Of a stretch of 64,000 bases of DNA, positions 4,914-49,567 are shown piece after piece (the stretch's first letter is position 1; each line of letters opens with the position of its first letter). The position numbers were made by a program, and so were the translations under genes. The notes beneath the pieces were generated by a model, which had not been told where the DNA came from, did not search any database, and saw only the letters and a list, made by a program, of their open reading frames with translations. The stretch comes from Candidatus Omnitrophota bacterium (GTDB taxonomy: Bacteria; Omnitrophota; Gorgyraeia; Zapsychrales; JANLHA01), in the NCBI GenBank assembly GCA_023247795.1, contig JAHFFT010000004.1, positions 9,739 through 73,738 on the forward strand, given 5' to 3'.

Positions 4914-4931
4914 TTCAACCCCCGGGGTTGG
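4914..4931. repeat. Palindrome TTCAACCCCCGGGGTTGG immediately 3' of the rodA stop codon.
   Basis: Perfect dyad. The same motif recurs at 41686 and three times at 49521-49567. Here it would encode TNPRG* directly after the rodA stop. Confidence 0.7.
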
Positions 4932-4932
4932 T

Positions 4933-6039
4933 TTAAAAAATCGTCCGTCGTTTGCTCAGGTTTAATAAAAAACCGATCATCAGGACAAAAATGAGAAACG
5001 AGGTCCGACCGTAACTCACTAAAGGCAACGTGATTCCAACCACCGGACATAACCCTAAAACCATTCCAATGTTGATCGCCACCTGCAGGGTCAAAATACC
5101 AACGATCCCGATCGTCACCTGGGTGCCGAATTTGTCTTTGACCTGCTCGGCAATGATGAAGCCGCAGGTGATGAGCATAGCATAACACGCCAAGAGAAAA
5201 ATCGTTCCCATCAACCCCCATTCCTCTCCAATCACCGAAAAAATGAAGTCGGTATGGCGCTCCGGCAAAAAATTGAGTTGGTTCTGCGTTCCCGCCAGCC
5301 ACCCCTTACCGAACAACAACCCTGAACCTATGGCAATCTTGGATTGGATGATCGTATATCCCGCCCCCAAGGGATCGATATTGGGATTCAAAAAAACCAA
5401 AAGCCGGTCCCGCTGATACGACTTCAAAATATGCCAAGCAAAAGGAACAAGGCACAAACAAACTCCCAGAAAAAAAAGGTAATGACGATAGTGAAGGCCG
5501 CTGACAAAAAGCATAATGAGAAAAATCCCAAACATCAAAATGGCGGTCCCCAAATCCGGTTGTTTGAAGATGAGCAGCATCGGCAGCAAAGTGATCAAGA
5601 GCGGAAAAAATAAATCCCTCCATAAACGCTGCGTCAAGGTTAAAAAACTGAAAGAGATCTTTGAAATGTTCTCGCTGAAATACCGGCCCAGAGCAAAAAT
5701 CAATCCCAACTTGGCCAATTCCGACGGCTGAAAACTTAAGGGACCTAAATTGATCCATCGCTGCGCTCCCAAGGCGTGACGGCCGACGACCATGACCAAC
5801 AACAGCAAAAAGACGCATCCGCCGTAAAAAAAATAGGAAAGGTCAAAAAATTTTCGATAATCAATCTGACTCAACAACTGGATGAAAACAAGGCCGACGA
5901 TCGCAAAGACCAATTGACTCGTAAATACGGTGTCAGAAACCCGTGGGTTATGATAAGAGGCGCTATAAACCGCCAAAAGCCCCATACCAATGATCAAAAT
6001 GGTCGTGATCCAGATGAAAAAAGCCAAATGCCGGCGCAT
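4933..6039 (-). CDS. rodA: Rod shape-determining protein RodA (SEDS family).
   Basis: 368 aa with ten TM segments, and it lies downstream of PBP2 with an ATGA stop/start overlap. Confidence 0.85.
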   Translation of the reverse strand: MRRHLAFFIWITTILIIGMGLLAVYSASYHNPRVSDTVFTSQLVFAIVGLVFIQLLSQIDYRKFFDLSYFFYGGCVFLLLLVMVVGRHALGAQRWINLGPLSFQPSELAKLGLIFALGRYFSENISKISFSFLTLTQRLWRDLFFPLLITLLPMLLIFKQPDLGTAILMFGIFLIMLFVSGLHYRHYLFFLGVCLCLVPFAWHILKSYQRDRLLVFLNPNIDPLGAGYTIIQSKIAIGSGLLFGKGWLAGTQNQLNFLPERHTDFIFSVIGEEWGLMGTIFLLACYAMLITCGFIIAEQVKDKFGTQVTIGIVGILTLQVAINIGMVLGLCPVVGITLPLVSYGRTSFLIFVLMIGFLLNLSKRRTIF

Positions 6040-7754
6040 CAGATGATCTCCTCTTTACGCATCTCCTGAAGCAAATACCGCGACAACATCGCCGCGTGAT
6101 AACTGGAACCACCGTATTCCAAAAAAACACAAAACGCGATTTTTTGTTTGCCGCTCAAATCATATCCGACAAACCAGGCGTGATGTTTCCGCTGCGAATT
6201 GCTTTGCGCGGTCCCGGTCTTGCCAAAAACCTCAAAACCATCCATATTGAGTATCCCGGCGGTCCCTTCGGGATCCTGCACCACCGATCTTAAACCACTG
6301 TGGACAAGATCAAAATATTTTTTGTCGATCCTGATGGATTTGATGCTGGATAAACGAACGACCTCTTGCTGACCAATTTTTTTGATCAAATGGGGCTGCA
6401 CAACTTCTCCCGACCGAGCAATGGTTGCCATCATGCGCAGCAACTGAATCGGTGTCACCAATAAATCCCCCTGCCCAATCGAAAAATTCAGGGTGTCACC
6501 GGTGTACCAGCCTCCTTGATTTTTCGACTGCCGCAAAGCCTTGCTGGGAACCAGGCCGGCGGCCTCAAACGGCAGATCGATCTTCGTCCGTTCTCCAAAT
6601 CCAAATAAACGGGCATATTTGTTGATGATGTCCGCGTCCAACTTTCTTCCTAACGTGTAGAAATAAACATTGCAGGAATGGGCAATGGCCTGCACCAGAT
6701 TTTCCACGCCATGAACATGAGCGCAAAGGAATTTCTGTTCTCCCAGCAGATAGTAACCGGGACATTGCGTTGTTGTTTGGCTGGAAATCGTGCCCGAGTC
6801 CAATCCGGCCATGGCCATCACGGCTTTAAAAACCGAGCCCGGCGGATACTGGCCCTTAACCGCGCGATCCAACATCGGTGCCGACGAGTCCGTCAAGATG
6901 CCTGGCGCCTGACTCCGCAGCTTCTGATCGCTAAAAACATTGGGGTTATAACTTGGCGAATTGACCAATCCCAAAATATCGCCGGTATCAAGATCCATGA
7001 CAATGATCGACCCCCGCTGCTCTCCTAAAATTTTTGCCGCGATCCGCTGAATATCGCCGTCGATGGTCAATTCCAGGTCTTCTCCCTTCTGCGATTCACG
7101 GACCCCTAATAAACGCACTTGTTGGCCGTGGTTATTGACTTCGATTTGCTGGCCGCCGGCCTGCCCCTGCAAATAGCGGTCATAATACGCCTCGACCCCA
7201 TCGTATCCGACCAAACTTTCCGGATTATAACCATACTCTTTAAGCTGATCTACCTTGGAGTTATCGATTTTACCGACGTAACCAAGCACGTGCGCGCCAG
7301 CCTGCTCGAATGGATAAAAACGACGAAAGGATTCTTGAATATACAGGCCGGGGAAACGGAATCGATTTTCCTCCAACAGCATCGCCACTTTTTTATCGAC
7401 GTCGTAAACGATCACAACCGGCGCGAACGCGGCGACTTTTCGCTGAAAAAAACGCTGAAGCAAATCACGTTTTTTTTCGTTGAGGGTCTCGGCCAAAAAG
7501 GCGAATAATTCCTCACTCTCCCGGATGTCTTGCGGGACCACCGCGACATCGTACGATAAACGATTATCAACTAAAGTGTCGCCATTACGGTCGCGGATCA
7601 CCCCGCGCTGCGCTTCCAAAGGAACGACCCGGATGTGATTATTAGCACTGAGATTATGAAAATAGGCTCCCCTAATGACCTGGACATAGAACAGATCAAG
7701 CGCGATCGAAATCAACAAAAATAAAGCGATTACGCGAACAATCTTGATACGCAT
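6039..7754 (-). CDS. mrdA: Penicillin-binding protein 2 (elongasome transpeptidase).
   Basis: N-terminal TM anchor, transpeptidase motifs SVFK, SCN and KTGTA, and position in the mreBCD-mrdA-rodA cluster. Confidence 0.9.
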   Translation of the reverse strand: MRIKIVRVIALFLLISIALDLFYVQVIRGAYFHNLSANNHIRVVPLEAQRGVIRDRNGDTLVDNRLSYDVAVVPQDIRESEELFAFLAETLNEKKRDLLQRFFQRKVAAFAPVVIVYDVDKKVAMLLEENRFRFPGLYIQESFRRFYPFEQAGAHVLGYVGKIDNSKVDQLKEYGYNPESLVGYDGVEAYYDRYLQGQAGGQQIEVNNHGQQVRLLGVRESQKGEDLELTIDGDIQRIAAKILGEQRGSIIVMDLDTGDILGLVNSPSYNPNVFSDQKLRSQAPGILTDSSAPMLDRAVKGQYPPGSVFKAVMAMAGLDSGTISSQTTTQCPGYYLLGEQKFLCAHVHGVENLVQAIAHSCNVYFYTLGRKLDADIINKYARLFGFGERTKIDLPFEAAGLVPSKALRQSKNQGGWYTGDTLNFSIGQGDLLVTPIQLLRMMATIARSGEVVQPHLIKKIGQQEVVRLSSIKSIRIDKKYFDLVHSGLRSVVQDPEGTAGILNMDGFEVFGKTGTAQSNSQRKHHAWFVGYDLSGKQKIAFCVFLEYGGSSYHAAMLSRYLLQEMRKEEII

Positions 7755-8215
7755 TGTCTCAATTTTTCCAAAACATAGAGGGTTACCAAACTGGTGGCAA
7801 GCATTTCCGGAATGAACACATTAAAAAAGACCTCACGAAAGTCCATGGAGAAAAACATCTCATACAAAAAATACTGGATCGTGATGTAAATCACATAAAC
7901 CAGACATACCATAAGCAGGCGCGAGGCCCGCGAGCCCGGCTGGTAAATGTACATCTTAACAATCGACGTCAAATAAGCGCTGACCATATAAGAAAAGATA
8001 TGCATGCCAAAGACTTCGACCGCAAAACTGTCTTTCAATAATCCGCCTAAGAACGCGACAAGGAGGCTGGTGCGCACGCCCCGAAAAAGATTAAAAAAGA
8101 CAATCAAGATAATCATCAAATCCGGTTTGAACCAGCGGCCAAGCCCGTTGGAAAGCGCGGACTCAATGATGAAACACAGGGTGACTAAAATGGCAATGAC
8201 GAAAAAGCGACGCAT
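7730..8215 (-). CDS. mreD: Rod shape-determining protein MreD.
   Basis: 161-aa polytopic membrane protein between mreC and mrdA. Confidence 0.7.
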   Translation of the reverse strand: MRRFFVIAILVTLCFIIESALSNGLGRWFKPDLMIILIVFFNLFRGVRTSLLVAFLGGLLKDSFAVEVFGMHIFSYMVSAYLTSIVKMYIYQPGSRASRLLMVCLVYVIYITIQYFLYEMFFSMDFREVFFNVFIPEMLATSLVTLYVLEKLRQCVSRLFA

Positions 8216-8221
8216 CCGTTT

Positions 8222-9013
8222 TCAATCCCGCTTTTGGATGACCAAGACTTCCTCAATTTGTGATATGGCCGCCGCTGGTTTGATCACGCATTCCATGACT
8301 GGACGATTGTCCAAAACTTTGACCTCAACCACTTCACCCATCAACAACCCTTCTGGAAAGGCCGAACTCAACTTCGAAGAAATAACAAAATCCCCGACCT
8401 GGACGTCGGCTTTATCAGAAAGATAGCGCATCCGGCACATCCCGTCCTGCAATGTCCCGGAAACCAACCCAACTTCACGCGAACGCTGGATCAAGGCAAT
8501 GGCGCTGAACCCTGGATCCGTCAACAAAATGACTTTACTCTTGTTATCACTGACCTCGGCAATTTTACCAATGACCCCTGAGGCATTGACCACCGGCATC
8601 CCCAACTCCACCCCGTCTTGCGTTCCCTTATCGATCACCATTGTCGCGTTCCAATTGGAAGGGTCCCGACCGACGACATTGGCCGTGACTGAAGAAAAAA
8701 TGAGTTTGCGTTTGAGGTCCAACAATTTCCCCAAGCGGCTGTTTTCACGGATCACTTCCGCCATGCCGATGAGCCGCGCTTTCAGCATCCGATTCTCTTT
8801 CCGCAAAAGCACATACTCATCAAACGTTTGATGGTAATAGAAAATCTTTTTCAATTCCCGCAACGGAAGAGTTAACAACTGTGTGGGCTTTGTTACCATG
8901 GAAATAACATTGTATTTGAGCGGAATGAATGGGGTGGAACGGATGAACAGCAAAAGGAAAGCAGCTGCAAAGATCAGGAAGTAAGCTGAAATTTTTGTCT
9001 TATTACCAAACAC
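8222..9013 (-). CDS. mreC: Rod shape-determining protein MreC.
   Basis: N-terminal TM segment, coiled-coil region and C-terminal beta domain; it follows mreB. Confidence 0.85.
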   Translation of the reverse strand: MFGNKTKISAYFLIFAAAFLLLFIRSTPFIPLKYNVISMVTKPTQLLTLPLRELKKIFYYHQTFDEYVLLRKENRMLKARLIGMAEVIRENSRLGKLLDLKRKLIFSSVTANVVGRDPSNWNATMVIDKGTQDGVELGMPVVNASGVIGKIAEVSDNKSKVILLTDPGFSAIALIQRSREVGLVSGTLQDGMCRMRYLSDKADVQVGDFVISSKLSSAFPEGLLMGEVVEVKVLDNRPVMECVIKPAAAISQIEEVLVIQKRD

Positions 9014-9123
9014 GGTTAGAAGGGGTGAAGTGTTTCAATCCTTTGCTAAGCCCATGCGCTCATCAAAGGATTCCGCCTTGAGGGTTCCCTGCGGAAAAAT
9101 TTTTTTAGCAAAGACTGCTGGGA

Positions 9124-10194: not shown

Positions 10195-10321
10195 TGTATG
10201 GTTAAAAAGTGGGACACTCTGAAACAACACTTAAATCTTTACTGCACAAGCACATTGATCCTGCCACAGAACGTACTCAATTTTTCGTCGATGTGTTTAG
10301 CGCGACTAAGTAATAGCAAAC

Positions 10322-10350
10322 ATACTATATGAAAACAAATTCACTGTCAA
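10322..10350 (-). promoter_or_regulatory. Candidate sigma70-type promoter upstream of mreB: TTGACA-17-TAGTAT on the minus strand.
   Basis: Revcomp TGTCAA at 10345-10350 and ATACTA at 10322-10327, about 130 nt upstream of the mreB start. Identified by eye only. Confidence 0.3.
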
Positions 10351-10366
10351 TCAAATTCAATCAATC

Positions 10367-12570: not shown

Positions 12571-12717
12571 CCCGTTACCCCTATCTGCTTGATTTTCATT
12601 AAGTTTTAAACGTAATGGAATATCATTTTTATTATAGAAAATTCCTTTGCAAAGTAAAGCCTAATTTAGAAATTTTGTTGATCCAAATTACCTAATTGAC
12701 GGACGCCCCAAAATCTG

Positions 12718-13617: not shown

Positions 13618-13643
13618 AGAATTAAGGTGATAGGCAATCTTGG

Positions 13644-14132: not shown

Positions 14133-14178
14133 TCATCGCACCTGCGGGGGAAAGGGGGCTGTCGGGATCGAAAAAATT

Positions 14179-17383: not shown

Positions 17384-17399
17384 AACCTTTATTCACTCT

Positions 17400-20078: not shown

Positions 20079-20435
20079 TCAGTTACAAATTTGCTCCCAA
20101 TGCCCATCAACACATCTACCAATTTGACAGCCAATTCTAGGAATTGGTTTAATTCCACAGGACAAGGTTGGAGAGCTATCGCAAATTTGCTCCCAATAGC
20201 CATCAACACATCTACCAATTCGACAACCAATTTTAGGAATTGGTTTAATTCCACAGGACAAGGTTGGAGAGCTATCGCAAATTTGCTCCCAATAGCCATC
20301 AACACATCTGCCAACCCGACAGCCTATATTGGGAATTGGCTTTATACCGCAATTTAAGTTAGCGTTAGCATAAAATGGTGTTCCCATTACTACAATCAAA
20401 CATATAATTATTTTAACAATCAATTTACGGTTCAT
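20079..20435 (-). CDS. Secreted cysteine-rich tandem-repeat protein (118 aa). A signal peptide is followed by three 32-aa repeats with consensus CGIKPIPxIGCxxGRCVDG(Y/H)WEQIC(DSSPTLS).
   Basis: RBS AAGGAG sits 6 nt upstream of ATG at 20435. The signal peptide is MNRKLIVKIIICLIVVMGTPFYANA. Each repeat has 4 Cys (12 in total). The repeats are about 95% identical at the DNA level. Confidence 0.7.
   Translation of the reverse strand: MNRKLIVKIIICLIVVMGTPFYANANLNCGIKPIPNIGCRVGRCVDGYWEQICDSSPTLSCGIKPIPKIGCRIGRCVDGYWEQICDSSPTLSCGIKPIPRIGCQIGRCVDGHWEQICN
20086..20370. repeat. Tandem direct repeat, 3 copies of 96 bp (the third diverges at its 3' end), coding.
   Basis: The CAAATTTGCTCCCAAT… unit begins at 20086, 20182 and 20278. 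There are about 5 mismatches between copies 1 and 2. Confidence 0.9.
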
Positions 20436-20808
20436 TTTTCTCCTTTCGAAATACAGCTTCACGTAATTTCTGAATTTTAACTTCATAACTGCTGTCCTTT
20501 TTTACCTGTAAGTCAAAAAGGCGAAGCAGTTGGTCAATGCCTTTTTTTGCGTCTTCTGCCATGTCCTTATTTTGATTATTGATGTTGGCGACCGAATTAT
20601 CAAAATTAACTTTTTCTCTTTCTTGAAGACGTGGGAAGTATTCCCGCCTTGCTCCCCAATTAGTCACGAATAATGACACTAGAGACAATATGATAAAGAT
20701 TGCAAAGGTTGTAATTGTGTTAAACGGCGAGTTAAATAAAACGGTTCTACCTTTCAAATCACCCCATGTTGTAAATTTCTCTAATTCAAGAACTGACCAT
20801 TGAATCAT
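20425..20808 (-). CDS. Small single-pass membrane protein (about 127 aa), translationally coupled to the Cys-rich repeat gene.
   Basis: One TM helix (TITTFAIFIILSLVSLFVTNW) and a charged C-terminal tail. Its stop TAA (20425-27) overlaps the downstream ATG (20435) by 11 nt. The track start at 20832 is a TTG; ATG at 20808 is preferred. Confidence 0.5.
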   Translation of the reverse strand: MIQWSVLELEKFTTWGDLKGRTVLFNSPFNTITTFAIFIILSLVSLFVTNWGARREYFPRLQEREKVNFDNSVANINNQNKDMAEDAKKGIDQLLRLFDLQVKKDSSYEVKIQKLREAVFRKEKNEP

Positions 20809-23790: not shown

Positions 23791-23794
23791 TATG

Positions 23795-35066: not shown

Positions 35067-35094
35067 GGGGACAGACCCTAAAGGGTCAGTCCCC
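35067..35094. repeat. REP-like hairpin GGGGACAGACCCT-AA-AGGGTCAGTCCCC overlapping the trmH stop codon.
   Basis: 13-bp arms with one mismatch. The right arm encodes the C-terminal LGD* of the TrmH-like gene. Confidence 0.6.
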
Positions 35095-37585: not shown

Positions 37586-37640
37586 GCTAACCTCTACGGG
37601 TTGAATTATAAAAAATCCCACTGACCCCTATTATTCACGC

Positions 37641-38402: not shown

Positions 38403-38419
38403 GATGATCCTCTGTTATT

Positions 38420-39736: not shown

Positions 39737-39749
39737 CTCATCTATCCTT

Positions 39750-40322
39750 TCATTTTTTCGAACGTATTCCGATTGACCAAATGTCCAATACCCCCTCCAG
39801 AGCATCGGCGAAAGAAATCCGCTCCTTCTCCAAAAATTCCGGATTAAGAACCTGATCAATCGCCCCCATATACATCCTTACAGCCAAGGCTGAATTGATC
39901 TTGCGAAACTTTCTCTTTTTGATCCCCTCTTCGATCAAGGCTTTAATTTCGAAAATCTTCTCGTTGCGAAAATTGAGAAAGCGCGTCCACAAATCCGGCA
40001 ATTCGGATTTGATGTCTCCTAAAAAACGCTCAAACCAGGGAGCTAACCGCTGTTGTAGAAAAAAAATATTTTTGGAAATGACTTCAACCGGGTCTTTGTG
40101 ACTTTCCTCTATTAAGGAAAGTTCGTGGTTAATCTCTTTCTCTAACCGGCCGAAAATGGCTTCGGCCATTTCGATTTTACTGGTGAAATGTTTATAGATG
40201 GTGTTCTTGCTCATGACCAAATCCTGAGCGATCTCATCCATCGTCACCTTGCGATAACCGAACTTTAACATCCGGCCCATCGCGGCATCCAGAATCCGTT
40301 CGCGGGTTAAATCTTTCGACAT
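39750..40322 (-). CDS. TetR-family transcriptional regulator.
   Basis: N-terminal HTH RERILDAAMGRMLKFGYRKVTMDEIAQDLVMSKNTIYKHF. ATG at 40322. Confidence 0.8.
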   Translation of the reverse strand: MSKDLTRERILDAAMGRMLKFGYRKVTMDEIAQDLVMSKNTIYKHFTSKIEMAEAIFGRLEKEINHELSLIEESHKDPVEVISKNIFFLQQRLAPWFERFLGDIKSELPDLWTRFLNFRNEKIFEIKALIEEGIKKRKFRKINSALAVRMYMGAIDQVLNPEFLEKERISFADALEGVLDIWSIGIRSKK

Positions 40323-40340
40323 CGCCGCCCCCTTCATAAT

Positions 40341-40375
40341 TAACGTAAAATACTAATTGCGTATTTTTAGTATCC
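40341..40375. promoter_or_regulatory. Candidate TetR operator: overlapping dyads AAAATAC-TAATTGCG-GTATTTT and TACTAA…TTAGTA.
   Basis: Palindromes 20-50 nt upstream of the tetR start. Identified by eye only. Confidence 0.35.
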
Positions 40376-40438
40376 TATATGTTGCGGCGACACTTGTCCA
40401 TAAAATATTGCTGATAGAAATTTGTATGGAGGAACAAT

Positions 40439-40479
40439 AAAAAAATTGCCGGCCACCCCGCCTAAGCGGGACAACCGGC
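40439..40479 (-). terminator. Rho-independent terminator for gap: GC-rich hairpin GCCGGCCACCCCGC-CTAA-GCGGGACAACCGGC followed on the minus strand by a U7 tract.
   Basis: The hairpin lies about 45 nt 3' of the gap stop. The plus-strand A7 run at 40439-40445 is read as a T-tract on the coding strand. Confidence 0.55.
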
Positions 40480-40523
40480 TATTTTATTAAAATGCTAACC
40501 GAGATGTCCTTATTGCTGAAACC

Positions 40524-41627
<1,104 letters not shown>

Positions 41628-41685
41628 TTATTTTCTCTGCGCCGGGGCAACAGGGGACCACACCCCGGGAGTCCAACTCCCCATG

Positions 41686-41703
41686 TTCAACCCCGGGGGT
41701 TGG
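41686..41703. repeat. Palindrome TTCAACCCCGGGGGTTGG overlapping the fmt stop. It encodes the fmt C-terminal residues NPRG*.
   Basis: Same motif as 4914-4931. Confidence 0.7.
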
Positions 41704-42631
41704 TTAATACAGTACCCACGGATATTTTATGGCCGGCAATGAATGTCCTGATCTCCATTGGTTTTGCCGATTCCAGATGGACCTTTTTGATCAACAAGGC
41801 GCCGCGGCCGGCTTGGACAATCACCCCGCCCTCATTGACCTCAATGACCTCGCCGGCTTGTTTGCTCGTCGCTAGGCCTTTGCTCGTTTCCGTCTCTAAA
41901 ATCTTAAGCTGCCGGCCTTCCCAATACGTATAAGCCGAAGGCCACGGGACAAGGCCGCGGACCAGGTTATGGATCTGTGCGGCCGGTAACCGCCAATCAA
42001 TCAATCCCAGCTCTTTGGTTAACTTTGGGGCTAAGCTGACCTGACGATCATCTTGCTTCTTTCGTCGAACCTGCCCTTTTTCAAAAGCAGTTACCGCATC
42101 AAGCAGGATGTCTGCTCCCAATACAGCTAATTTTGTTCTCAACGTGACCGCGTTATCATTTTCTTGGATCGCGATACTCGACTGCGAAACAATATCCCCG
42201 GCATCCATCTGCTCGTTCATTTGGATCACCGTGACACCGGTTTCCTTTTCACCTTTTAGGATCGCCCAATTGATCGGTGCTGCCCCGCGATATTTTGGCA
42301 GTAAAGACGCGTGAACATTGATCGCTCCCAACCGCGGTATGCCCAAAATCCGGCCCGGCAAAATTTGGCCGTAAGCAATCACGATGAAAAGATCAGCTTG
42401 ATAAGACTGCAATTGTTTGGCCCATTTTGGTTCGCTGAAATCCGGCGGCTGCAAACAATCCATCCCCTGCTCTTGGGCCAAAACCTTAATCACGGACGCT
42501 GTTACTTTCAACCCACGGCCCTTGGGCCGATCCGGCTGAGTGACTGCGGCCACGATTTTCTGCCCTGAATCGATCAACTTTTTCAGACTGACCGCTGCAA
42601 AATCATCACTGCCGAAAAAAATGATTTTCAT
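41687..42631 (-). CDS. fmt: Methionyl-tRNA formyltransferase.
   Basis: N-terminal formyltransferase fold (…NVHASLLPKYRGAAPI…) plus a C-terminal tRNA-binding domain. Confidence 0.9.
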   Translation of the reverse strand: MKIIFFGSDDFAAVSLKKLIDSGQKIVAAVTQPDRPKGRGLKVTASVIKVLAQEQGMDCLQPPDFSEPKWAKQLQSYQADLFIVIAYGQILPGRILGIPRLGAINVHASLLPKYRGAAPINWAILKGEKETGVTVIQMNEQMDAGDIVSQSSIAIQENDNAVTLRTKLAVLGADILLDAVTAFEKGQVRRKKQDDRQVSLAPKLTKELGLIDWRLPAAQIHNLVRGLVPWPSAYTYWEGRQLKILETETSKGLATSKQAGEVIEVNEGGVIVQAGRGALLIKKVHLESAKPMEIRTFIAGHKISVGTVLTNPRG

Positions 42632-42656
42632 GTTCTCCTATCCATTCTCATCTAGT

Positions 42657-42688
42657 GTGGGGACAGTCCCTAAAGGGACGGTCCCCAC
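42657..42688. repeat. REP-like hairpin GTGGGGACAGTCCCT-AA-AGGGACGGTCCCCAC.
   Basis: 15-bp arms with one mismatch. Intergenic between the priA stop and the fmt start. Confidence 0.6.
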
Positions 42689-42695
42689 ACCACAT

Positions 42696-44461
42696 TTACG
42701 GATCCACGTTGATCGTAACGATAACACCTTTCTTATTTTTAAACCCACGAATAACCGGCCGGATCCGCTTGATCAACTTCTCCACGAACACGGTCTTTAA
42801 CATTATAGAAAACCGATACTGTTTACGCAACTTGAAGGAACCCACCGCTTGTGGATCAAAGATCTGTTCCTGCTTGGTCAAACATGAAGTTAACGCCGCG
42901 TATAGCTGATTGGCTAAATCAGCAACAACATCTTCTTTTTTTCCTCGAAGCTGGATAGAAATGAAATGTTGATATGGCGGAAATCCTAAGTTCCGACGGT
43001 GTTTCAATTCTTGTTGATAAAATCCCGCAAAATCCGCCTTCCCCACCGACGCCAACGTATATTCCTGGGGCTGATAAGTCTGGATCACCAACTTTTTCTG
43101 CGCCACCTGACGAAAATGCATGAGCAGACTGAAGACCCGATGCGCCGAATGGAAATCAAAACGATTGAGCTCTGAATCAATCGCCAACACGGCCAGCAGA
43201 CGCGGATGAATACGCCGCAAATGTTTCACAACCGCTTGTGTTGCCACAATCACATTGGCCTCTTCAGGAAACCGGGCAGATTCCTGATCAAACCTTGCCA
43301 CTCGCGCGTAAGGAAAAAATTTCTTCAAGTCGGCTTCGACCTTGACCACACTGGCCTGCCAATTCTGCAAACGCCGCTCCTGGTCAGAACCCGCAGCCGG
43401 TGGATAAAAATATTTGATTTGATCGTTACGGGTTTCTTCCCGCGGCCCCTTACGGTTAAAAAAAACCACCACCTTACCGTCGTTGGCCAACGCTTCTTCA
43501 ATGTGATTGATCATCGGGTAAGACAAATACGTTCCTTTTCGCGGTTTATAATTCGCCAGGTCAACGATCGTGGTATCAGCCCATTGCTTATTCAAAAAAA
43601 TCTCGACGCTAATTTTTTTCTTTTTAATTATCCCCCACAATTCAGGAGAAGGGCAGGGACTGACAAACACCACATCACATCCCTCGAATTTCTGACGCAT
43701 AAAAACCACGTCCCGGGTCTGATAGCGTGGAGATTGCTCCTGCTTGTAGGCACTGTTGTCTTCTTCATCCATAACAATCAACCCCAATTGATCGACAGGA
43801 GCAAAAACCGCGGAACGCGTCCCCACCACGACCCTTGATGTTCCGTTTTTGATGCTCGTCCACTGCACCAACTCTTCGCTGGGTTTCAACTTTCTATCAA
43901 TCACCGCGGCGATTACGGCGCACGCGCCTTCAATCATGGATTTGACACTTTCAATCAAATTCACTTCCGGGACCAAGACAATGACGCCCCGGCCTTGCGC
44001 CAAAGCATCTTTGATTTTTTTAAAACAACTGGCCAGCGCCCATCACCCTGCTGATCATGGCACAAAATGGTTTCTCCTTGCTGTTGGGGAACCGGATCAT
44101 CCCGACGAGCAGCAAAGTTTGAGACCGTTTTGCGTCGAAGGACCGCGGGCAGACTGCTTTCAATCGCCTCGCCCCAGGAGCAACCGTAATAATCACTGAA
44201 TGTTTTTGCCAAGGTGAGTTGTGTTGCAGATAGCGCCGGATCAAGTTCGTCGAGAAGTGCCAATACCGGCTTTAAATTTTTGATGGGACTTTGTTTCCGC
44301 AAACCGATCACGTAACCGATCGTTTTACGGAACGCAAACGAAACATAAACCCGCTGCCCTTCTTTGACTTTGTCTCGAAACGCTTCCGGCAAAAAATAAT
44401 CAAACGGCCCTTCGACCGGCAATCCAAGTACAACTTGGGCGATGCGATTGTTCATTTTCAA
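42696..44461 (-). pseudogene. priA: Primosomal protein N' (PriA) split into two ORFs by a -1 frameshift in a 7-nt homopolymer. It also has an atypical Walker A.
   Basis: The N-terminal ORF (44461→43961) ends …ETILCHDQQGDGRWPVVLKK|SKMLW…. Adding one T/A to the T7 run at 44016-44022 gives …VVLKKIKDALAQGRGVIVLVPEVNLIE…, continuous with the 42696..44003 ORF (helicase motif II MDEED, C-terminal Zn/CTD region). GDGRW replaces the canonical GSGKT. Confidence 0.75.
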
Positions 44462-44478
44462 ATGCGGGTTGAATTTGG

Positions 44479-45570
44479 TTAAGATGCTGTGACGAATGCT
44501 GCGATATCTCTGGCCGCATGCGGTTTAGCAAGAACAGCGATTTTTTCTTTAACGGCGGATAATTCGGATTGAGAGACCTGGTAGCGTCGCAGCACTTCTG
44601 CCATCTTATCTATCGGGACATCGCTCAGACCGACGCCATATTCTTTCAAAATTTGAACGTTGTGCTGTTCCTGGCCGGGAATGGCGCTAAAAAATATCAA
44701 GGGCAGTCCGCAGACCAGACCTTCGGAAATGGATAAACCACCCGGCTTGGTGATCATCGCGTCAGCGGCTTTCATCAGTTCGTCCATATTGTCGACCAAA
44801 CCCTGCACTTTGACAAGCTCTCTTTTCCAGCGGCCGAGCCGACGGTAAAGATTTTTGTTGTGTCCGCAGACCACGATGATCTGAAACCCGTCCAAGGCTT
44901 CAATCACCTCATCAATCGGGCCGATGCCGAAGGAACCCGTCGCTACCAGCACGGTAAAAACATCGGGCTGCAATCCCAGACGGCGGCGTAAGGCCGAAAC
45001 ATCGACCGATTCCGCGAAGCGATGGTCGGTCGGAATGCCGGTGACTTTGATCTGACCAGCCGCGACCCCCAGTAGCTGCAATTTTGTCTTTGTCCGGTCG
45101 CAAGCCACCGCGTAGAAATCGATCCCCTTTGACACCCAGATGCTGTGGACATCAAAATCGGTAATGACCGCTATGACTTGCGAATGGATTTTGTCGCTCC
45201 GTTTCAAATAAGAAGCCACTTCGTTGGGAAAAAAGTGGGCTGAATAAATTTGATCAAACTGCTCTTTGATCAAAAACTTGTGCAAACCAAAACCCATGAC
45301 GGAATTTTGCGTCCGTCGAAGGAACCTGACAACCGGCCCAAACCATTTTTGATCCAACAGTTCAAACACCACTTTCCAAATCCAAGGGAAATGAGAAATC
45401 ATCACCGTGTAGGAACCGCTGTAAAACGGTTTATACCCTTTGCAGGTATGGTCAAGCGCATCGACGATCCGGACATCATGGGACCCTTGTTTTTTGAGTT
45501 CGGCAAAAATGGCCTCAGCGGCTCGACGATGGCCGGCACCAGCGGTTGCGTGAATCACCAATATTTTCAT
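44479..45570 (-). CDS. MGDG-synthase-like / UgtP-type diacylglycerol glycosyltransferase (GT28).
   Basis: N-terminal MGDG_synth domain (…HATAGAGHRRAAEAI…) plus a C-terminal GT28_C domain. Confidence 0.75.
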   Translation of the reverse strand: MKILVIHATAGAGHRRAAEAIFAELKKQGSHDVRIVDALDHTCKGYKPFYSGSYTVMISHFPWIWKVVFELLDQKWFGPVVRFLRRTQNSVMGFGLHKFLIKEQFDQIYSAHFFPNEVASYLKRSDKIHSQVIAVITDFDVHSIWVSKGIDFYAVACDRTKTKLQLLGVAAGQIKVTGIPTDHRFAESVDVSALRRRLGLQPDVFTVLVATGSFGIGPIDEVIEALDGFQIIVVCGHNKNLYRRLGRWKRELVKVQGLVDNMDELMKAADAMITKPGGLSISEGLVCGLPLIFFSAIPGQEQHNVQILKEYGVGLSDVPIDKMAEVLRRYQVSQSELSAVKEKIAVLAKPHAARDIAAFVTAS

Positions 45571-46199
45571 TTTCGCTTCGCAAACTTTACGGGTTTTCTT
45601 GCGGTAAGAAGCGGACGGGACGTTTTTTTGCGAGGCGCCGGTTTACCGTTGCCATCGAGGATAACTTTGACGGCCTCCAAAAGGTCTTTGGTGATGGTGT
45701 CCGGATGGACTTTCCATTTTCGCATATACCGACGATCTTCGCGTCCAGAGAGAACAAAGATCGTCTTGCAACCGGCATTATGTCCGGCAAGGATGTCGGT
45801 CTCGGTATCACCGACAAAATAAGTTTTTCCAGCCGACCGTAAATTTTTATTCATCGACCGCAGGGCCTCACGAATAAAACCAATGCCTGGCTTACGGTAA
45901 TCGCAGTGTTGTCCGCCGCGGGCAATGGCATAATAAACCCGGTCGATCTTGCCGCCGGCCCTCTCCACTTCACGGAACATCTTGATCGTAATCTGGCTGA
46001 GTTTGTTCTGGCTGTAAACACCCTTCTCGATGCCAGCCTGATTGGAAATCACGACGATCTTGTAACCAGCCTGGGTCAAACGCTGGATGGCCTCGAGCGA
46101 GCCAGGGATGAAATGAAAATCCTTAGCACGGGTAACGTAATTGCCGTTTCCCGGGAATTTATTGATGACACCATCGCGATCTAGGAAGACTAATTTCAT
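45567..46199 (-). CDS. gmhB: HAD-IIIA phosphatase (D,D-heptose-1,7-bisphosphate phosphatase GmhB-like) with a basic C-terminal tail.
   Basis: The MKLVFLDRDGVIN motif and …GDTETD…. Confidence 0.75.
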   Translation of the reverse strand: MKLVFLDRDGVINKFPGNGNYVTRAKDFHFIPGSLEAIQRLTQAGYKIVVISNQAGIEKGVYSQNKLSQITIKMFREVERAGGKIDRVYYAIARGGQHCDYRKPGIGFIREALRSMNKNLRSAGKTYFVGDTETDILAGHNAGCKTIFVLSGREDRRYMRKWKVHPDTITKDLLEAVKVILDGNGKPAPRKKTSRPLLTARKPVKFAKRK

Positions 46200-46333
46200 T
46201 GCCTTTCTCTAAAATCAAACGCTGTCAAGCTTTTTTTATGGACGTGGGGTCAGCGAGGAATTGCGCTCAAACCCGTATAAGTATAATTGAAAAACAATGG
46301 CGGGATCAATGGAAATAGGAAGTTTTTTCAAAT

Positions 46334-46366
46334 CTGGGGGACAGCCCCTGAAGGGGCCGTTCCCAG
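46334..46366. repeat. REP-like hairpin CTGGGGGACAGCCCCT-GA-AGGGGCCGTTCCCAG.
   Basis: Imperfect member of the GGGGAC-N-GTCCCC family; intergenic. Confidence 0.5.
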
Positions 46367-46383
46367 TCTTTCGATCTTACTTT

Positions 46384-47487
46384 TTACACCAACTCGGCCA
46401 GCGTTTGACAAACATAATCCACTTGTTCCTGGCTCATGTGCGGGAACATCGGCAATGATAAAACCTCTTCACAAAGCTGTTCGGCAAACGGCAAATCGCC
46501 TTTTTTGTATCCAGCGTCGATGTAAGCCTCTTGCAGATGCAGCGCGATTGGGTAATGGATGAGAACGTCGATCCCGCGCTTTTTCATTTCTTCCATGATC
46601 TTGTCGCGTTTCTTAAGCCGCACGGCAAAGGTCTGGAAGACATGGCTGCGATCAGATTTGATTTTCGGCAGGCCCACCTTACCTTGCAGTTTTCCTAATC
46701 CTTTGAAGTACCGCTCAGCGACTTTATTGCGTAGGCAGTTCCATTCATCCAGATATTTCAACTTCTCGGCGAGGACCACGGCTTGCACGGTATCCAAACG
46801 CGAATTATATCCCTTGATCGAATGTTCATACCGGTTCTTCCGGCCATAATCGCGCAGCATGGTCACTTTTTCAAAAATCTTCTGATCATTGGTCACGACC
46901 ATTCCCCCGTCGCCAAATCCGCCCAGGCTCTTCGTCGGATAAAAACTAAAGCAACCGACCTGCCCCAACGACCCGGCCTTTTTCCCTTGATACGTGGCCC
47001 CATGCGCCTGACAGGCATCTTCGATGACCGCAATGTTTCGTTTCGCGGCCAGCGCGTTGATTTCCTTCATATTCGCGGCTTGACCATAAATATGGACGGG
47101 GATGATCGCTTTCGTCTTACTGGTAATGGCTTTCTTTACACCGTCAGGATCCAGATTATACGTTTCCGGTTCACTGTCCACAAACACCGGCTTAGCTCCG
47201 GTATAAGAAACACAAAGCGCTGTGGCGATGAACGTAAACGTCGGCAAAATCACTTCGTCGCCGGGCTTGATGTCTAAAGCCGACACCGCCAGATATAGCG
47301 CGTCAGTTCCGGAGTTAACGCCCACTCCATGCTTACAACCGCAATAGCGGGCAAAATCCTTTTCAAAATCCTGGGCCTCTTCTCCAAGAATAAAATTGCC
47401 CTTTTCAAAAACGGCATTGAGACCTTTATGCATTTCGGTCTTGATGGTCTCGTATTGGGGACGAAAGTCAATGAACGGAACTTTCAT
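46384..47487 (-). CDS. DegT/DnrJ/EryC1/StrS-family PLP-dependent sugar aminotransferase.
   Basis: 367 aa with an AAT fold-I (…GVNSGTDALYLA…, …YPTKSLG… Lys region). Confidence 0.85.
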   Translation of the reverse strand: MKVPFIDFRPQYETIKTEMHKGLNAVFEKGNFILGEEAQDFEKDFARYCGCKHGVGVNSGTDALYLAVSALDIKPGDEVILPTFTFIATALCVSYTGAKPVFVDSEPETYNLDPDGVKKAITSKTKAIIPVHIYGQAANMKEINALAAKRNIAVIEDACQAHGATYQGKKAGSLGQVGCFSFYPTKSLGGFGDGGMVVTNDQKIFEKVTMLRDYGRKNRYEHSIKGYNSRLDTVQAVVLAEKLKYLDEWNCLRNKVAERYFKGLGKLQGKVGLPKIKSDRSHVFQTFAVRLKKRDKIMEEMKKRGIDVLIHYPIALHLQEAYIDAGYKKGDLPFAEQLCEEVLSLPMFPHMSQEQVDYVCQTLAELV

Positions 47488-47518
47488 GAAAAACCAACCT
47501 TTCTTTAATAGTTACATG

Positions 47519-47586
47519 TCTCCAGTCTCAAGTGACAAGTAACTTGTGACATGGAACTTAAGACTTGTCACTTGAAACTGGAGACT
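47519..47586. repeat. Inverted repeat with 21-bp arms (CTCCAGTCTCAAGTGACAAGT / ACTTGTCACTTGAAACTGGAG, one mismatch) containing three ACTTGT(C/G)AC-type half-sites.
   Basis: It spans the GT9 stop codon and the GT9-to-aminotransferase intergenic spacer. Confidence 0.55.
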
Positions 47587-48646
47587 GCAATATTTGCTCC
47601 ACTTTTTCCAAAACATCTTTCACTTCGATGTTCTTTAAACAACTGATGTGATCACAGCTCGCCCGACGAAAATGACGGTAACACGGCCGGCAGGCAATAT
47701 TGCTGGTAACCACCGCGTGTCCTTCCGGCGGATACGGACCGTACACCTGCTCGGGAACGGGTCCGAAGATCGAAACGGTTTTGGTGCCGACAGCGGCCGC
47801 CATATGCAGCGGCCCGCCGTCATTGGTGATGACCAAATCACAGCGCTCTAAAATGGCCGCAGTCTGCAGCAAAGAATTTTCCGCGCAAACCGCGGCCGGC
47901 CGATGGGCCATTCTATCAGAAACCCCTTGCAGCAGTTTTTTTTCCTTCTCACTGCCCATCAAAAAAATCCGGGCATGGTATTTTTCAATCAATTGATCAA
48001 CGAGCTGAGAAAATTTCTCCGGTGCCCAGCGTTTATACAAAGCATCATGACCCCAACTCGCCCCGCCCGCCGGGAAAACAGCCATCGCCAGCTCCCCGCG
48101 CCCAACACCATGTTTGATCAAAAAACTTTCCGCCCAATCCTGGTCCTGTTTCGCCAAAGGCAATTTCATCTGCCTGGTTTGGATCGGAACGGCGAGTTCC
48201 CGCAAAAGATCAAGATAGCAATCGACGACGTGCTTTTTCTCGTAGCCAAAGAACGAAATTTTCTTTGTCAAAAAACGGCCGCGATTACGAAAATCAAATC
48301 CCACTCGCCGCGGGATGCCTGCCCCAAAAGACAAAAAACCCATAAAGCCATTGAGCGAAAGATCCATCACCAAATCGTAATGTTCCCTTTTGATGTCCTG
48401 AACCAAATTAAAAATCTTTTGCAAATACTGGAACTTTGATTTTTGTTGTATGGACTGCCATTCGTCGCGTTCATAAACATGAACCTTATGTAAAGATGGA
48501 TGTCGCTCGAGGAATTGGGCCGCGCGGCGATTCGCCAAATAACCGATTTGGATTTTTGGCGAATGCGCTTTCAAATTCTCAATCAACGGGGTCGTAAAGA
48601 GAACATCGCCGATACCATAAATATTGATGATAAGAACTTTTTCCAT
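47558..48646 (-). CDS. Glycosyltransferase family 9 (heptosyltransferase-like).
   Basis: N-terminal …INIYGIGDVLFTTPLI… and a C-terminal GT-B half, as in RfaC/RfaF. Confidence 0.8.
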   Translation of the reverse strand: MEKVLIINIYGIGDVLFTTPLIENLKAHSPKIQIGYLANRRAAQFLERHPSLHKVHVYERDEWQSIQQKSKFQYLQKIFNLVQDIKREHYDLVMDLSLNGFMGFLSFGAGIPRRVGFDFRNRGRFLTKKISFFGYEKKHVVDCYLDLLRELAVPIQTRQMKLPLAKQDQDWAESFLIKHGVGRGELAMAVFPAGGASWGHDALYKRWAPEKFSQLVDQLIEKYHARIFLMGSEKEKKLLQGVSDRMAHRPAAVCAENSLLQTAAILERCDLVITNDGGPLHMAAAVGTKTVSIFGPVPEQVYGPYPPEGHAVVTSNIACRPCYRHFRRASCDHISCLKNIEVKDVLEKVEQILQSPVSSDKS

Positions 48647-48656
48647 CCCAACCTTT

Positions 48657-49499
48657 TCATTGAACCGCTGTTTTACCGCGCTTAGAAGTTTTATAGCGAA
48701 CCCTTAACCACTTGAATGGATGATACCAAAATTTGCCATTGATCAGCCGCCAATCGGCCTGACTGAGCTCGTGCTGGGCAACGCGTTCTTCCATGACCTT
48801 GGGATGCGTTCCCAAATACGCCGGGAATCGATTGAGATCGCCGTAAGAATATTTTTCTATTCGCTCTTCCGAGCGGAGTGTGGCAAAACCGATATTTTCG
48901 GCATTGACCCGACGCTGCGTCATGATCTCTTCTGGATGCACCCAGCCGTAATGATACAAAAGACAACTCGTGGCCCGATGTCGCAACCGCTGTTGGTCTT
49001 TGCGTCGGAACCCCGCGGCGTCACCGCAAGACTCCACTTGCCCGCTATTTTTAACAATCCGTTCGCTCTTTTGAAACCATCCGTAATCGATCCGATAACG
49101 GTAATAACTTCCATAAAAATGCAGCCAACGCAGCCGTAAGGCATCCACTTGATCGTCGTGAAGATATTTGCGCATGCAGTTTAAAAGCGGCCGATGGTCT
49201 TTTTCGTGAATGACTTCATCCGACTGCAGATAAAACGCCCAATCGCCAGAGCATTCGGCCAAGGCCCGATTGGTTTCATCGGCCAAGACCGTTGCCCCAA
49301 AATTCATGTCCCAAACGGATTGGATGATCCGGATTTTGGGGTCACGCAAGGTCTTGAGCAATGCCATCGTCCCATCTTCTGAATCCCCGACGTTGATGAT
49401 GAATTCGTCACAGATCGGTAGAATCGACTGGATTGATTCTAAAATGGGGTAATTGTATTTGATCACATTGCGGGCAATGGTGAATCCGCTGATTTTCAT
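48657..49499 (-). CDS. Glycosyltransferase family 2-like protein.
   Basis: MKISGFTIARN… with DxD-type …VGDSEDGT…. The track start at 49538 is a TTG inside a palindrome; ATG at 49499 is preferred. Confidence 0.65.
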   Translation of the reverse strand: MKISGFTIARNVIKYNYPILESIQSILPICDEFIINVGDSEDGTMALLKTLRDPKIRIIQSVWDMNFGATVLADETNRALAECSGDWAFYLQSDEVIHEKDHRPLLNCMRKYLHDDQVDALRLRWLHFYGSYYRYRIDYGWFQKSERIVKNSGQVESCGDAAGFRRKDQQRLRHRATSCLLYHYGWVHPEEIMTQRRVNAENIGFATLRSEERIEKYSYGDLNRFPAYLGTHPKVMEERVAQHELSQADWRLINGKFWYHPFKWLRVRYKTSKRGKTAVQ

Positions 49500-49520
49500 A
49501 TCATGAAATGTGCTTTTCCA

Positions 49521-49567
49521 CGCACCCCCGGGGTTCAACTCCCGGGGTTAAACCCCGGGGGTGTGCG
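49521..49567. repeat. Triple copy of the CCCGGGG palindrome: CGCACCCCCGGGGTTCAACTCCCGGGGTTAAACCCCGGGGGTGTGCG.
   Basis: It overlaps the GT4 stop (encoding …TPGV*) and is the same motif family as 4914 and 41686. Confidence 0.7.

What the first reader, a model, noticed from the sequence alone, without database searches (positions are those of the whole stretch)
4914..49567. Recurrent CCCCGGGG palindrome (TTCAACCCCCGGGGTTGG) that encodes protein C-termini
Seen directly: the same GC palindrome occurs at 4914-4931 (immediately after the rodA stop, where it would read TNPRG*), at 41686-41703 (where it actually encodes the fmt C-terminal residues NPRG plus the stop), and three times in 49521-49567. 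There it encodes the GT4 C-terminal TPGV* and also creates an artefactual TTG start MNPGGAW for the downstream GT2 ORF. This small palindromic element inserts at, and overwrites, the 3' ends of genes, donating the last few codons and a stop. That behaviour is known for REP/BIME-like elements and some MITEs but is not usually annotated. It can also mislead start-codon prediction, as with the GT2 gene.
Basis: seen in the sequence. Interest (0 to 1): 0.55.

Follow-up and report, generated by a model that had tools for sequence, protein, structure and literature searches.

The report
Short palindromic repeats hugging gene ends
A 13-base GC-rich palindrome (AACCCCSGGGGTT), alone or in small arrays, sits right at the stop codons of several unrelated genes in this uncultured Omnitrophota bacterium; it is a REP-like dispersed repeat, real and new for this phylum but of an ordinary, well-known kind.

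Summary
A palindromic unit AACCCCSGGGGTT lies at three places in the window, all on the 3' side of minus-strand genes. There is one unit 1 nt after the rodA stop. One intact unit plus two decayed ones overlap the last 5 codons and stop of fmt. A three-unit, 14-nt-period array supplies the last 5 codons and stop of a GT4 gene and creates a false TTG start for the next GT2 gene.

The window comes from an Omnitrophota MAG. A sister genome (93-97% identical) has the element at all three sites and at two unrelated operon junctions, queE|queF and thiH|thiF. At queE|queF the sister has 4 units and the window's own genome has 1. More distant syntenic Omnitrophota lack it at these junctions, and one carries it at a different junction. 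The residues it encodes lie beyond the conserved ends of fmt and GT4.

I read it as a REP/BIME-like dispersed palindromic repeat with variable copy number. It would be transcribed into stem-loops (arrays -36 to -43 kcal/mol) with no U-tract. It lacks the GTAG/CGTC tag of classical REPs, and no RAYT could be looked for. Actual insertion that "overwrites" gene ends is plausible but not shown. Interest is modest.

The parts
4914..4931 (-). Single palindromic unit (mRNA sense CCAACCCCGGGGGTTGAA) that starts 1 nt after the rodA stop codon (4933-4935).
   Evidence: It is conserved in the sister genome (L022/L073), where it fills most of a roughly 40-nt rodA-lemA spacer. As RNA it forms only a 6-bp triloop hairpin; the 51-nt stretch around it folds at -11.4 kcal/mol (z -0.8).
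41686..41703 (-). Intact unit overlapping the fmt 3' end. It encodes T-N-P-R-G and the TGA stop (41687-41689).
   Evidence: The tail lies beyond the conserved fmt core. It is identical in the sister genome L070/L036.
41660..41685 (-). Two decayed units (plus strand CACCCCGGGAGTC and CAACTCCCCATGT) directly downstream of the intact fmt unit in the direction of transcription.
Evidence: Read from the sequence. The region does not fold better than shuffles (z -0.37).
41599..41627 (-). Promoter-like site (TTTGCA-17-TATAAT with TG) for the downstream gap gene, just past the element.
   Evidence: The TATGTTATAAT box is also present in L070 and L066. It places the fmt element at the end of a transcription unit.
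49521..49567 (-). Three-unit array with a 14-nt period between GT4 and GT2 (units at 49523, 49537 and 49551). The outer units pair into a long stem-loop in RNA.
   Evidence: I4: 20-nt arms, 90% complementary; period 14, 2.8 copies. Fold -39.7 kcal/mol, z -5.0. It is present in the sister genome with 3 substitutions, all in the linkers between units. It is absent from the syntenic GT4-GT2 spacer of L068.
49548..49550 (-). GT4 stop codon (TAA), formed by the linker between units 1 and 2. The last codons, HTPGV, come from unit 1.
49497..49499 (-). Likely true ATG start of the GT2 gene. The TTG at 49536-49538 inside the array is a mechanical ORF-extension artefact.
   Evidence: TTG ORF of 293 aa. 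Searches give 280-aa and 282-aa gene calls in relatives. One search shows the sequence MKISGFT / MMISGFT.

Best explanation
The motif is a lineage-restricted family of dispersed short palindromic repeats of the REP/BIME type.

Anatomy (shown):
- The unit is a 13-nt palindrome, AACCCCSGGGGTT, often with outer flanks CC/TTC...GG/GAA.
- It occurs singly or as head-to-tail arrays of 2-4 units with an exact 14-nt period.
- Units lie in the short spacer just 3' of a gene, starting from 16 nt before to about 30 nt after the stop codon.
- The spacer may be inside an operon (GT4|GT2, queE|queF, thiH|thiF) or at the end of a transcription unit (fmt|gap).
- Where the upstream protein has a dispensable tail, the reading frame runs on into the element, which then supplies about 5 codons and the stop.

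Behaviour (shown): the same unit sits at non-homologous junctions within one genome and at different junctions in different Omnitrophota lineages. Unit number changes between close strains.

Mechanism (inferred):
- Arrays grow and shrink by slippage or recombination between units. The 42-nt difference at queE|queF is exactly 3 periods.
- How new sites are seeded is unknown.
- The element is transcribed with the upstream gene. Neighbouring units pair into a very stable GC stem-loop without a U-tract.
- That stem-loop most likely acts as a barrier to 3'->5' exonucleases, as a partial attenuator, or as both. It would raise the level of the upstream cistron relative to the downstream one, as shown for E. 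coli REPs (my own knowledge).
- Because it sits within a ribosome footprint of the stop codon, it may also affect termination.
For: - Recurrence in the window at three 3'-end junctions.
- The same units sit at two junctions not homologous to any window locus, queE|queF and thiH|thiF, in the 93-97% identical sister MAG nzgw298.
- The 18-mer is concentrated in four MAGs, against coding or scattered hits elsewhere.
- Units are spaced exactly 14 nt apart in every array.
- Copy number differs: 4 units in L020 and L072 against 1 unit in the window's own genome (L071). Gene calls give spacers of 46 nt against 89 nt.
- Presence and absence at orthologous junctions. The GT4|GT2 spacer of L068 and the fmt 3' flanks of L066 and L052 lack it. 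L052/L043 carry one unit between a 175-aa gene and DegT, where the window's genes overlap by 4 nt.
- Position. In the spacers that are long enough to tell, the element is next to the upstream stop and not the downstream start. Distances from the stop against distances to the next start: fmt overlapping vs ~135 nt, L013 10 vs 152, L015 27 vs 327, L017 16 vs 245.
- RNA folds of the arrays are -36 to -43 kcal/mol, z -4.4 to -6.9.
- Published REP behaviour matches. REPs lie mostly downstream of ORFs, between unidirectional or convergent genes, often as adjacent units that fold together, and their termini often supply the stop codon (PMC3733652).
Against: - Only 5 junctions are known in this species-level lineage, and genome-wide copy number could not be counted.
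- No transposase or RAYT was seen. None is evident in the window ORFs by inspection; this was not an HMM test.
- The unit (13-19 nt) is shorter than classical REPs and has no GTAG/CGTC tag.
- A perfect palindrome with a single central base suits a dimeric DNA-binding protein as well as it suits an RNA hairpin.
- Single units fold weakly (z not significant).
- The three substitutions in the sister genome's GT4|GT2 array break the inner part of the long stem rather than compensating.
- There are no expression data.
Confidence: 0.55

Rival explanations
1. The units are neutral or selfish, slippage-prone palindromic repeats with no host function. They persist next to stop codons only because that is the one place in tight spacers where they do not damage promoters, ribosome-binding sites or coding cores.
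For: - A 1-versus-4 unit polymorphism between close strains with no obvious consequence.
- Decayed units at fmt.
- Patchy distribution among Omnitrophota lineages.
- Coding overlap is limited to non-conserved tails.
Against: - The same core is kept in MAGs of 47-56% G+C that are far apart.
- Unit cores are unchanged between the two sister genomes, while the linkers differ. That sample is tiny.
- This rival differs from the best explanation only on function, not on what the element is.
Confidence: 0.2
2. They are factor-independent transcription terminators, or 3'-end hairpins that evolved in place at each gene and are not a repeat family with a common origin.
For: - They lie immediately 3' of genes.
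- At fmt a strong promoter-like site follows.
- At the same fmt junction another lineage (L068) has a different GC hairpin.
- In a CPR genome (L029) nearly the same palindrome is followed by T-runs, as in an ordinary terminator.
Against: - No T-run follows any copy in this lineage. The terminator scan picks up none of them, yet it finds a classical terminator after gap at 40479-40448.
- Three of the five junctions are inside operons of functionally linked genes (queE-queF, thiH-thiF, GT4-GT2).
- Identical 13-18-mers at unlinked loci and 14-nt periodic arrays are not expected from independent origin.
Confidence: 0.12
3. They are DNA sites for a dimeric protein, such as a transcription factor, a nucleoid protein, or a restriction-modification or recombination enzyme that recognises ACCCCSGGGGT.
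For: - The unit is a perfect palindrome around a single free central base, with no room for a loop. That is the classical layout of a homodimer site.
- The core is conserved across distant MAGs.
- The inner CCSGG is an NciI/ScrFI-type restriction sequence (my own knowledge).
Against: - Position follows the upstream stop codon, not the downstream promoter or start.
- The flanking genes have no common function.
- Tandem arrays with variable unit number, and the T/A variants that appear as reverse-complement pairs in adjacent units (L020), fit hairpin pairing better than a set of operators.
- No candidate binding-protein gene is linked to any copy.
Confidence: 0.1
4. It is a chance recurrence of a GC-rich palindrome.
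For: - CCCCGGGG alone is only marginally enriched.
- By my own rough estimate, about 3 pairs of 18-mers that match with one mismatch are expected somewhere in 64 kb.
Against: - The three window loci are all at gene 3' ends.
- There are 14-nt periodic arrays.
- The same units occur at further junctions in the sister genome, and hits cluster in four MAGs.
Confidence: 0.03

Closest known systems
REP / BIME elements (repetitive extragenic palindromes; E. coli PU/BIME, Pseudomonas REPs, the GTAG and CGTC superfamilies of Di Nocera et al. 2013, PMC3733652)
   Same: - Short GC-rich palindromes dispersed over many unrelated intergenic sites.
- Mostly downstream of ORFs, between co-directional genes.
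- Often adjacent units that fold together into larger hairpins.
- Sometimes overlap gene ends and supply the stop codon.
- Plausibly transcribed.
   Different: - The unit is 13-19 nt and perfectly symmetric, not a 20-40 nt imperfect palindrome.
- There is no unpaired GTAG or CGTC tag.
- Units are packed at a fixed 14-nt period rather than separated by the linker motifs of BIMEs.
- Copy number appears to be tens at most, not hundreds.
- Any link to a RAYT is unknown.
REPINs mobilised by RAYT transposases (Bertels and Rainey 2011, PMC3116915)
   Same: Doublets of inverted palindromic units that form a hairpin in single-stranded DNA or in mRNA, spread through extragenic space.
   Different: - REPINs have two REPs separated by a spacer and a cognate RAYT gene flanked by REPs.
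- Here the units abut, arrays hold 1-4 units, and no RAYT could be looked for.
Intrinsic (Rho-independent) terminators
   Same: A GC-rich stem-loop immediately 3' of a gene.
   Different: - There is no U-tract.
- Several copies lie inside operons.
- The sequence is shared between loci.
Short tandem repeats with variable copy number (VNTR/minisatellite-like arrays)
   Same: Head-to-tail units with a fixed 14-nt period, and a unit number that differs between close strains (1 versus 4).
   Different: The unit is itself a palindrome, and the same unit is dispersed over many loci, singly as well as in arrays.

Membership tests
REP (GTAG/CGTC-tagged repetitive extragenic palindromes) | Imperfect palindrome of 20-40 bp | tested here: not met
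   The unit is a perfect 13-nt palindrome, 15-19 nt with flanks. Only arrays reach 40-56 nt.
REP (GTAG/CGTC-tagged repetitive extragenic palindromes) | Unpaired GTAG or CGTC tetranucleotide at one end (PMC3733652) | tested here: not met
   The flanks are CCAAC / TTCAAC, TAA, or locus-specific. No GTAG or CGTC tag is seen in any of the copies aligned by eye.
REP (GTAG/CGTC-tagged repetitive extragenic palindromes) | High copy number, extragenic | tested here: inconclusive
   There are 3 loci in 64 kb and 5 junctions known in the lineage, all extragenic or overlapping only gene tails. Whole genomes could not be scanned.
REP (GTAG/CGTC-tagged repetitive extragenic palindromes) | Predominantly downstream of ORFs, between unidirectional or convergent genes | tested here: met
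   Of the 13 sites checked in the five motif-rich genomes (window plus four MAGs), 11 start within about 30 nt after a stop codon or overlap it. One lies 33 nt after the stop with a second unit closer, and one (L018) may lie upstream of its gene. One of the junctions is convergent.
REPIN/RAYT system | Cognate RAYT (Y1/HUH transposase) gene flanked by the repeats | not testable with these tools
   Only 64 kb of this genome and about 8-kb pieces of relatives were available. No transposase-like ORF was evident in the window by inspection, and no HMM test was run.
REPIN/RAYT system | Inverted REP doublet with a spacer, forming a hairpin | tested here: inconclusive
   Adjacent units do pair into long hairpins. 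They abut at a 14-nt period without a spacer, and their orientation (judged from the central base and the T/A variants) is mixed, for example -,+,+,- in L020.
Intrinsic terminator | GC-rich stem-loop followed at once by a U-tract | tested here: not met
   The stems are present, but no T-run follows. None of the copies is listed by the terminator scan, which does find the gap terminator at 40479-40448.
Intrinsic terminator | Located at the end of transcription units | tested here: not met
   True for fmt|gap. False for queE|queF, thiH|thiF and GT4|GT2, which are operon-internal spacers of 48-89 nt.
MITE | Terminal inverted repeats plus a target-site duplication; size roughly 50-500 bp | tested here: not met
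   No duplication or terminal repeats flank the units. By contrast, the unrelated 373-bp insertion at 4536-4908 has both.
Variable-number tandem repeat | Head-to-tail units whose number varies between strains | tested here: met
   TRF gives period 14. Spacing is exactly 14 nt in all arrays. There are 1 versus 4 units at queE|queF.
DNA uptake sequences | Very high density (about one per kb), in both genic and intergenic DNA | tested here: not met
   Density is about one locus per 20 kb, and only at gene 3' ends.

The most novel reading that the evidence does not exclude
The AACCCCSGGGGTT core is kept across distant Omnitrophota (and perhaps other PVC) lineages because a host factor recognises it. 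It would then be a phylum-specific signal for 3'-end formation, RNA processing or attenuation that needs no U-tract. Its strength would be set by the number of 14-nt units, so that slippage (1 <-> 4 units) tunes the ratio of upstream to downstream cistrons inside operons. It would spread without a RAYT.
Probability: 0.12. Interest if true: 0.55.

Novelty: new variant of a known kind. Interest (0 to 1): 0.33.

Why it matters
Practically, it matters for annotation of Omnitrophota MAGs. These units lengthen ORFs by a few codons, supply stop codons, create false TTG/GTG starts (GT2 here, queF and thiF in the sister genome) and break short-read assemblies; the Logan contig L071 ends 44 nt past the queE stop, just after the unit. 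Biologically, the literature search found no repeat families described for Omnitrophota. An untagged, 14-nt-periodic palindromic repeat that varies in copy number inside operons would be a compact case for testing whether REP-like hairpins set the relative levels of cistrons, and how such repeats spread without an obvious transposase. It does not change any general concept. REPs that overlap stop codons are already documented.

Tried and rejected
- tRNA-like reading: GGTTCAAC resembles a T-loop, but ARAGORN finds no tRNA in the window and the would-be T-stem does not pair.
- Known RNA families: no Rfam match at gathering score anywhere in the window.
- Viral origin: the 18-mer is absent from the viral contig collection.
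- 'Conserved in many phyla': 9 of the 25 hits outside the four enriched MAGs are gltB coding sequence ([21 protein letters not shown]), so they reflect protein conservation and not the element. Two Burkholderiales hits share another context. Most other hits are single coding or scattered sites.
- CPR hits: in L029 related palindromes are followed by T-runs and look like ordinary terminators. I did not count them as family members.
- Orientation bias (CCAAC next to the stop): 6 of 8 informative single units. This is not significant, and it is partly imposed by my asymmetric search pattern.
- Strand inference from G-U versus C-A asymmetry: the evidence conflicts. The GT4 array favours the sense strand and single units slightly favour the antisense strand.
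- Empty-site test in the sister genome: the thiH|thiF junction could only be recovered from the nzgw298-type population (L074 is identical to L008). P0364 is not on record, and the ENA contigs carried no DNA.
- The metagenome scan mostly re-found the same MAG loci.
- Literature: nothing on palindromic repeats in Omnitrophota. The paper on REPs near stop codons and trans-translation (Liang, Rudd and Deutscher 2015) is not in the library and is cited from memory only.

Full report
**1. Observation**

Nearly all genes in the window are on the minus strand.
- 4914-4931 is TTCAACCCCCGGGGTTGG.
- 41686-41703 is TTCAACCCCGGGGGTTGG, with the same flanks and the central base switched.
- Three units lie in 49521-49567.

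Pfam confirms the neighbouring genes: rodA (4933-6039) with PBP2 upstream and LemA downstream; fmt (41687-42631) between priA and gap; and a GT4 (49548-50681) followed by a GT2.

The rodA stop is 1 nt from the unit. The fmt frame reads TNPRG* through the unit. The GT4 frame reads HTPGV*, with the TAA formed by the linker between units 1 and 2.

The mechanical ORF for GT2 starts at a TTG inside the array (293 aa). The in-frame ATG at 49499 gives 280 aa, as called in relatives.

Small corrections:
- Read-through after rodA would give TNPGG*.
- Two decayed units at 41660-41685 were missed.
- The array is a 14-nt tandem repeat (TRF).

**2. Is it more than chance?**

Within the window the evidence is suggestive but post hoc. 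The independent test was a scan of 185,579 species genomes for TTCAACCCCSGGGGTTGG. It returned 36 places, about the 35 I estimated by hand for random sequence of that size, but they are far from evenly spread:
- 4 in Candidatus Omnitrophota nzgw298;
- 3 in Omnitrophica AM5_bin-0692;
- 2 each in two MAGs labelled Planctomycetia.

Nine of the remaining hits are one conserved stretch of gltB coding sequence in other phyla. In the four enriched MAGs the sites are intergenic.

**3. Source and relatives**

nzgw298 is 93-97% identical to the window over three contigs (L022/L073 = window 4043-7751; L036/L070 = 39792-51054). fmt and GT4 homologues are named Omnitrophota/Omnitrophica by their sources. 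The window is therefore from an Omnitrophota MAG, held in the protein index on a 92,223-bp contig.

**4. Anatomy of the family**

The unit is AACCCCSGGGGTT. Variants are AACTCCCGGGGTT and its reverse complement AACCCCGGGAGTT. In every array the units start exactly 14 nt apart.

The sister genome carries the element at all three window loci. It also carries it at two junctions that are not homologous to any window locus:
- queE-[4 units]-queF (L020);
- thiH-[3 units]-thiF (L008).

Both start 0-3 nt after a TAA stop.

As RNA in the sense of the genes, the arrays fold into long GC stems. In the longer stretches:
- -39.7 kcal/mol for GT4|GT2;
- -43.1 kcal/mol for queE|queF;
- -43.0 kcal/mol for thiH|thiF;
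- z-scores from -4.4 to -6.9.

Single units give only a 6-bp triloop hairpin and do not stand out from shuffles. No copy is followed by a T-run. The terminator scan lists none of them, although it finds a textbook terminator after gap.

**5. Dynamics**

*Copy number.* The window's own genome was traced through the QueE protein cluster (sample SRR14366766 / ERZ27297570). At queE|queF it has one unit, TAACCCCAACTCCCGGGGTGTCAAATGGGG. nzgw298 and a third assembly (L072) have four. The gene calls give spacers of 46 nt against 89 nt in L072. The 42-nt difference in the sequences is exactly three periods and lies between AAC microhomologies, as expected for slippage or unit-to-unit recombination.

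*Presence and absence at orthologous junctions.*
- The syntenic GT4|GT2 spacer of L068 (65% protein identity) has no palindrome.
- The fmt 3' flanks of L066 and L052 have none.
- L068 has a different GC hairpin (GGGGACGGT...ACCGTCCCC) at the fmt 3' flank.
- The Hainich groundwater contigs L052/L043 are about 70% identical to the window and syntenic with it. They carry one unit between the stop of a 175-aa gene and the DegT start. At that junction the window's genes overlap by 4 nt.

So the same unit occupies different junctions in different lineages. That is how a dispersed repeat behaves. It is not how a cis-element tied to particular genes behaves.

**6. The coding overlap**

Among the 120 best fmt homologues, only the window protein and its 92% sister end in NPRG. 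Among the 120 best GT4 homologues, only the window protein ends in TPGV. Both proteins end in variable tails after a conserved anchor:
- fmt ...F..GH plus a median of 9 residues, against 13 in the window;
- GT4 ...VY plus a median of 6 residues, against 13 in the window.

The frames therefore run on into the element by about the 5 codons it encodes, and nothing conserved is replaced. The insertion event itself is not documented, because the only close relative already has the element at these sites.

**7. Position**

In spacers long enough to tell, the element is next to the upstream stop and not the downstream start:

| Junction | Distance from upstream stop | Distance to downstream start |
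|---|---|---|
| fmt | overlapping | ~135 nt |
| L013 | 10 nt | 152 nt |
| L015 | 27 nt | 327 nt |
| L017 | 16 nt | 245 nt |

At fmt a strong promoter-like site for gap follows. Three of the five junctions in this lineage lie inside operons of functionally linked genes. That argues against full terminators and matches what is described for REP/BIME elements.

**8. Comparison with known families**

Di Nocera et al. (PMC3733652) describe REPs as follows:
- 20-40-bp palindromes tagged by GTAG or CGTC;
- mostly downstream of ORFs, between unidirectional or convergent genes;
- often adjacent units in opposite orientation that can fold into larger structures;
- termini that often supply the stop codon of the flanking ORF.

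Bertels and Rainey (PMC3116915) define REPINs and their RAYT transposases.

The present family shares location, dispersal, hairpin-forming neighbours and stop-codon overlap. It fails the length and tag criteria, is packed at a fixed 14-nt period, and could not be tested for a RAYT. I therefore say it works like a REP/BIME, and I file it as an untagged variant, not a member of the GTAG/CGTC superfamilies. A literature search found nothing on such repeats in Omnitrophota.

**9. Mechanism: shown and inferred**

Shown:
- recurrence;
- 3'-end position;
- arrays with a 14-nt period;
- copy-number change between close strains;
- lineage-specific junctions;
- coding overlap limited to variable tails;
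- strong predicted RNA stems for the arrays and no U-tract.

Inferred:
- The element is transcribed with the upstream gene.
- It acts as a 3'-exonuclease barrier or partial attenuator. This rests on my own knowledge of E. coli REPs. RNase R and PNPase targeting of REP-containing mRNAs is mentioned in PMC12320835.
- It may influence termination, because it lies within a ribosome footprint of the stop codon (Liang, Rudd and Deutscher 2015, from memory).
- Array size changes by slippage.

Unknown: how new junctions are seeded.

**10. Verdict**

The feature is real and correctly observed. It is best described as a REP-like dispersed palindromic repeat that is new for Omnitrophota. Its main immediate value is for annotation (false starts, lengthened tails, assembly breaks). 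Biological interest is modest.

Noticed in passing
window 20046, 20881, 21438, 21518, 35068-35093, 42650-42695, 46338-46364, 61802, ~62866: A second, more frequent family of short GC palindromes also sits next to stop codons. The consensus is roughly TAGGG(G)ACNGTCCC(C)TA, single or as doublets that form hairpins. The doublet between the priA stop and the fmt start sits in a 79-nt spacer stretch that folds at about -40 kcal/mol. There are 9 matches with up to 1 mismatch against 1.2 expected. Some copies begin GTAG, and one supplies the TAG stop of gene 61812-62771. A related hairpin sits at the fmt 3' end of L068. This may be a genuine GTAG-tagged REP family.
   Followed up: partly
window 4536-4908: A 373-bp insertion is absent from the sister genome (L022/L073). 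It is flanked by a 9-bp direct repeat, CTAGGTTCA, and by imperfect terminal inverted repeats (TATTGTCAAAAGTTTT / TAGTGTCAAAAGTTTT). It carries a C-terminal DUF559 remnant (Pfam E 2e-7) between GC-rich stretches of the CCCCTCCC / GGGAGGGG type. It landed directly beside the rodA palindrome, and the duplicated target includes the unit's TTCA flank. No other copy is present in the DNA held.
   Followed up: partly
window ~44012-44018 (priA, 42696-44461, minus strand): priA is split into two overlapping ORFs by a 1-nt deletion in an A-run, compared with the sister genome (TTTTAAA-AAAATC versus TTTTAAATAAAATC). The ENA assembly of the same population calls an intact 586-aa PriA. This is probably a homopolymer assembly error and not a pseudogene.
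   Followed up: partly
window 47518-47585: An unrelated inverted repeat with 23-nt arms (96% complementary, 22-nt loop) overlaps the 3' end of the GT9 heptosyltransferase gene (47558-48646). It is only about 80% conserved in the sister genome, against about 93% overall.
   Followed up: no
L029 3760-3815, 4850-4905, 5040-5080 (Roizmanbacteria MAG): Three copies of a hairpin, TCCAAC(T/C)CCGG(A/G)GGTTGGA, are followed by T-runs. Two of them share about 40 nt of upstream sequence (..ATTGTGACGATATTTCC..). This looks like a repeated element that ends in a terminator in a CPR genome.
   Followed up: no
window 20079-20486: A small ORF encodes a signal-peptide-like N-terminus followed by three near-identical Cys-rich repeats of about 32 aa (..CGIKPIP.IGCR.GRCVDGYWEQICDSSPTLS..), seen in the translation.
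   Followed up: no
L052 7354-7393: The Hainich relative has another stop-adjacent hairpin with the same CCCCCGGGG core but different flanks (CCTATCCCGCCCCCGGGGTAGGGTAGG), in a 40-nt spacer.
   Followed up: no
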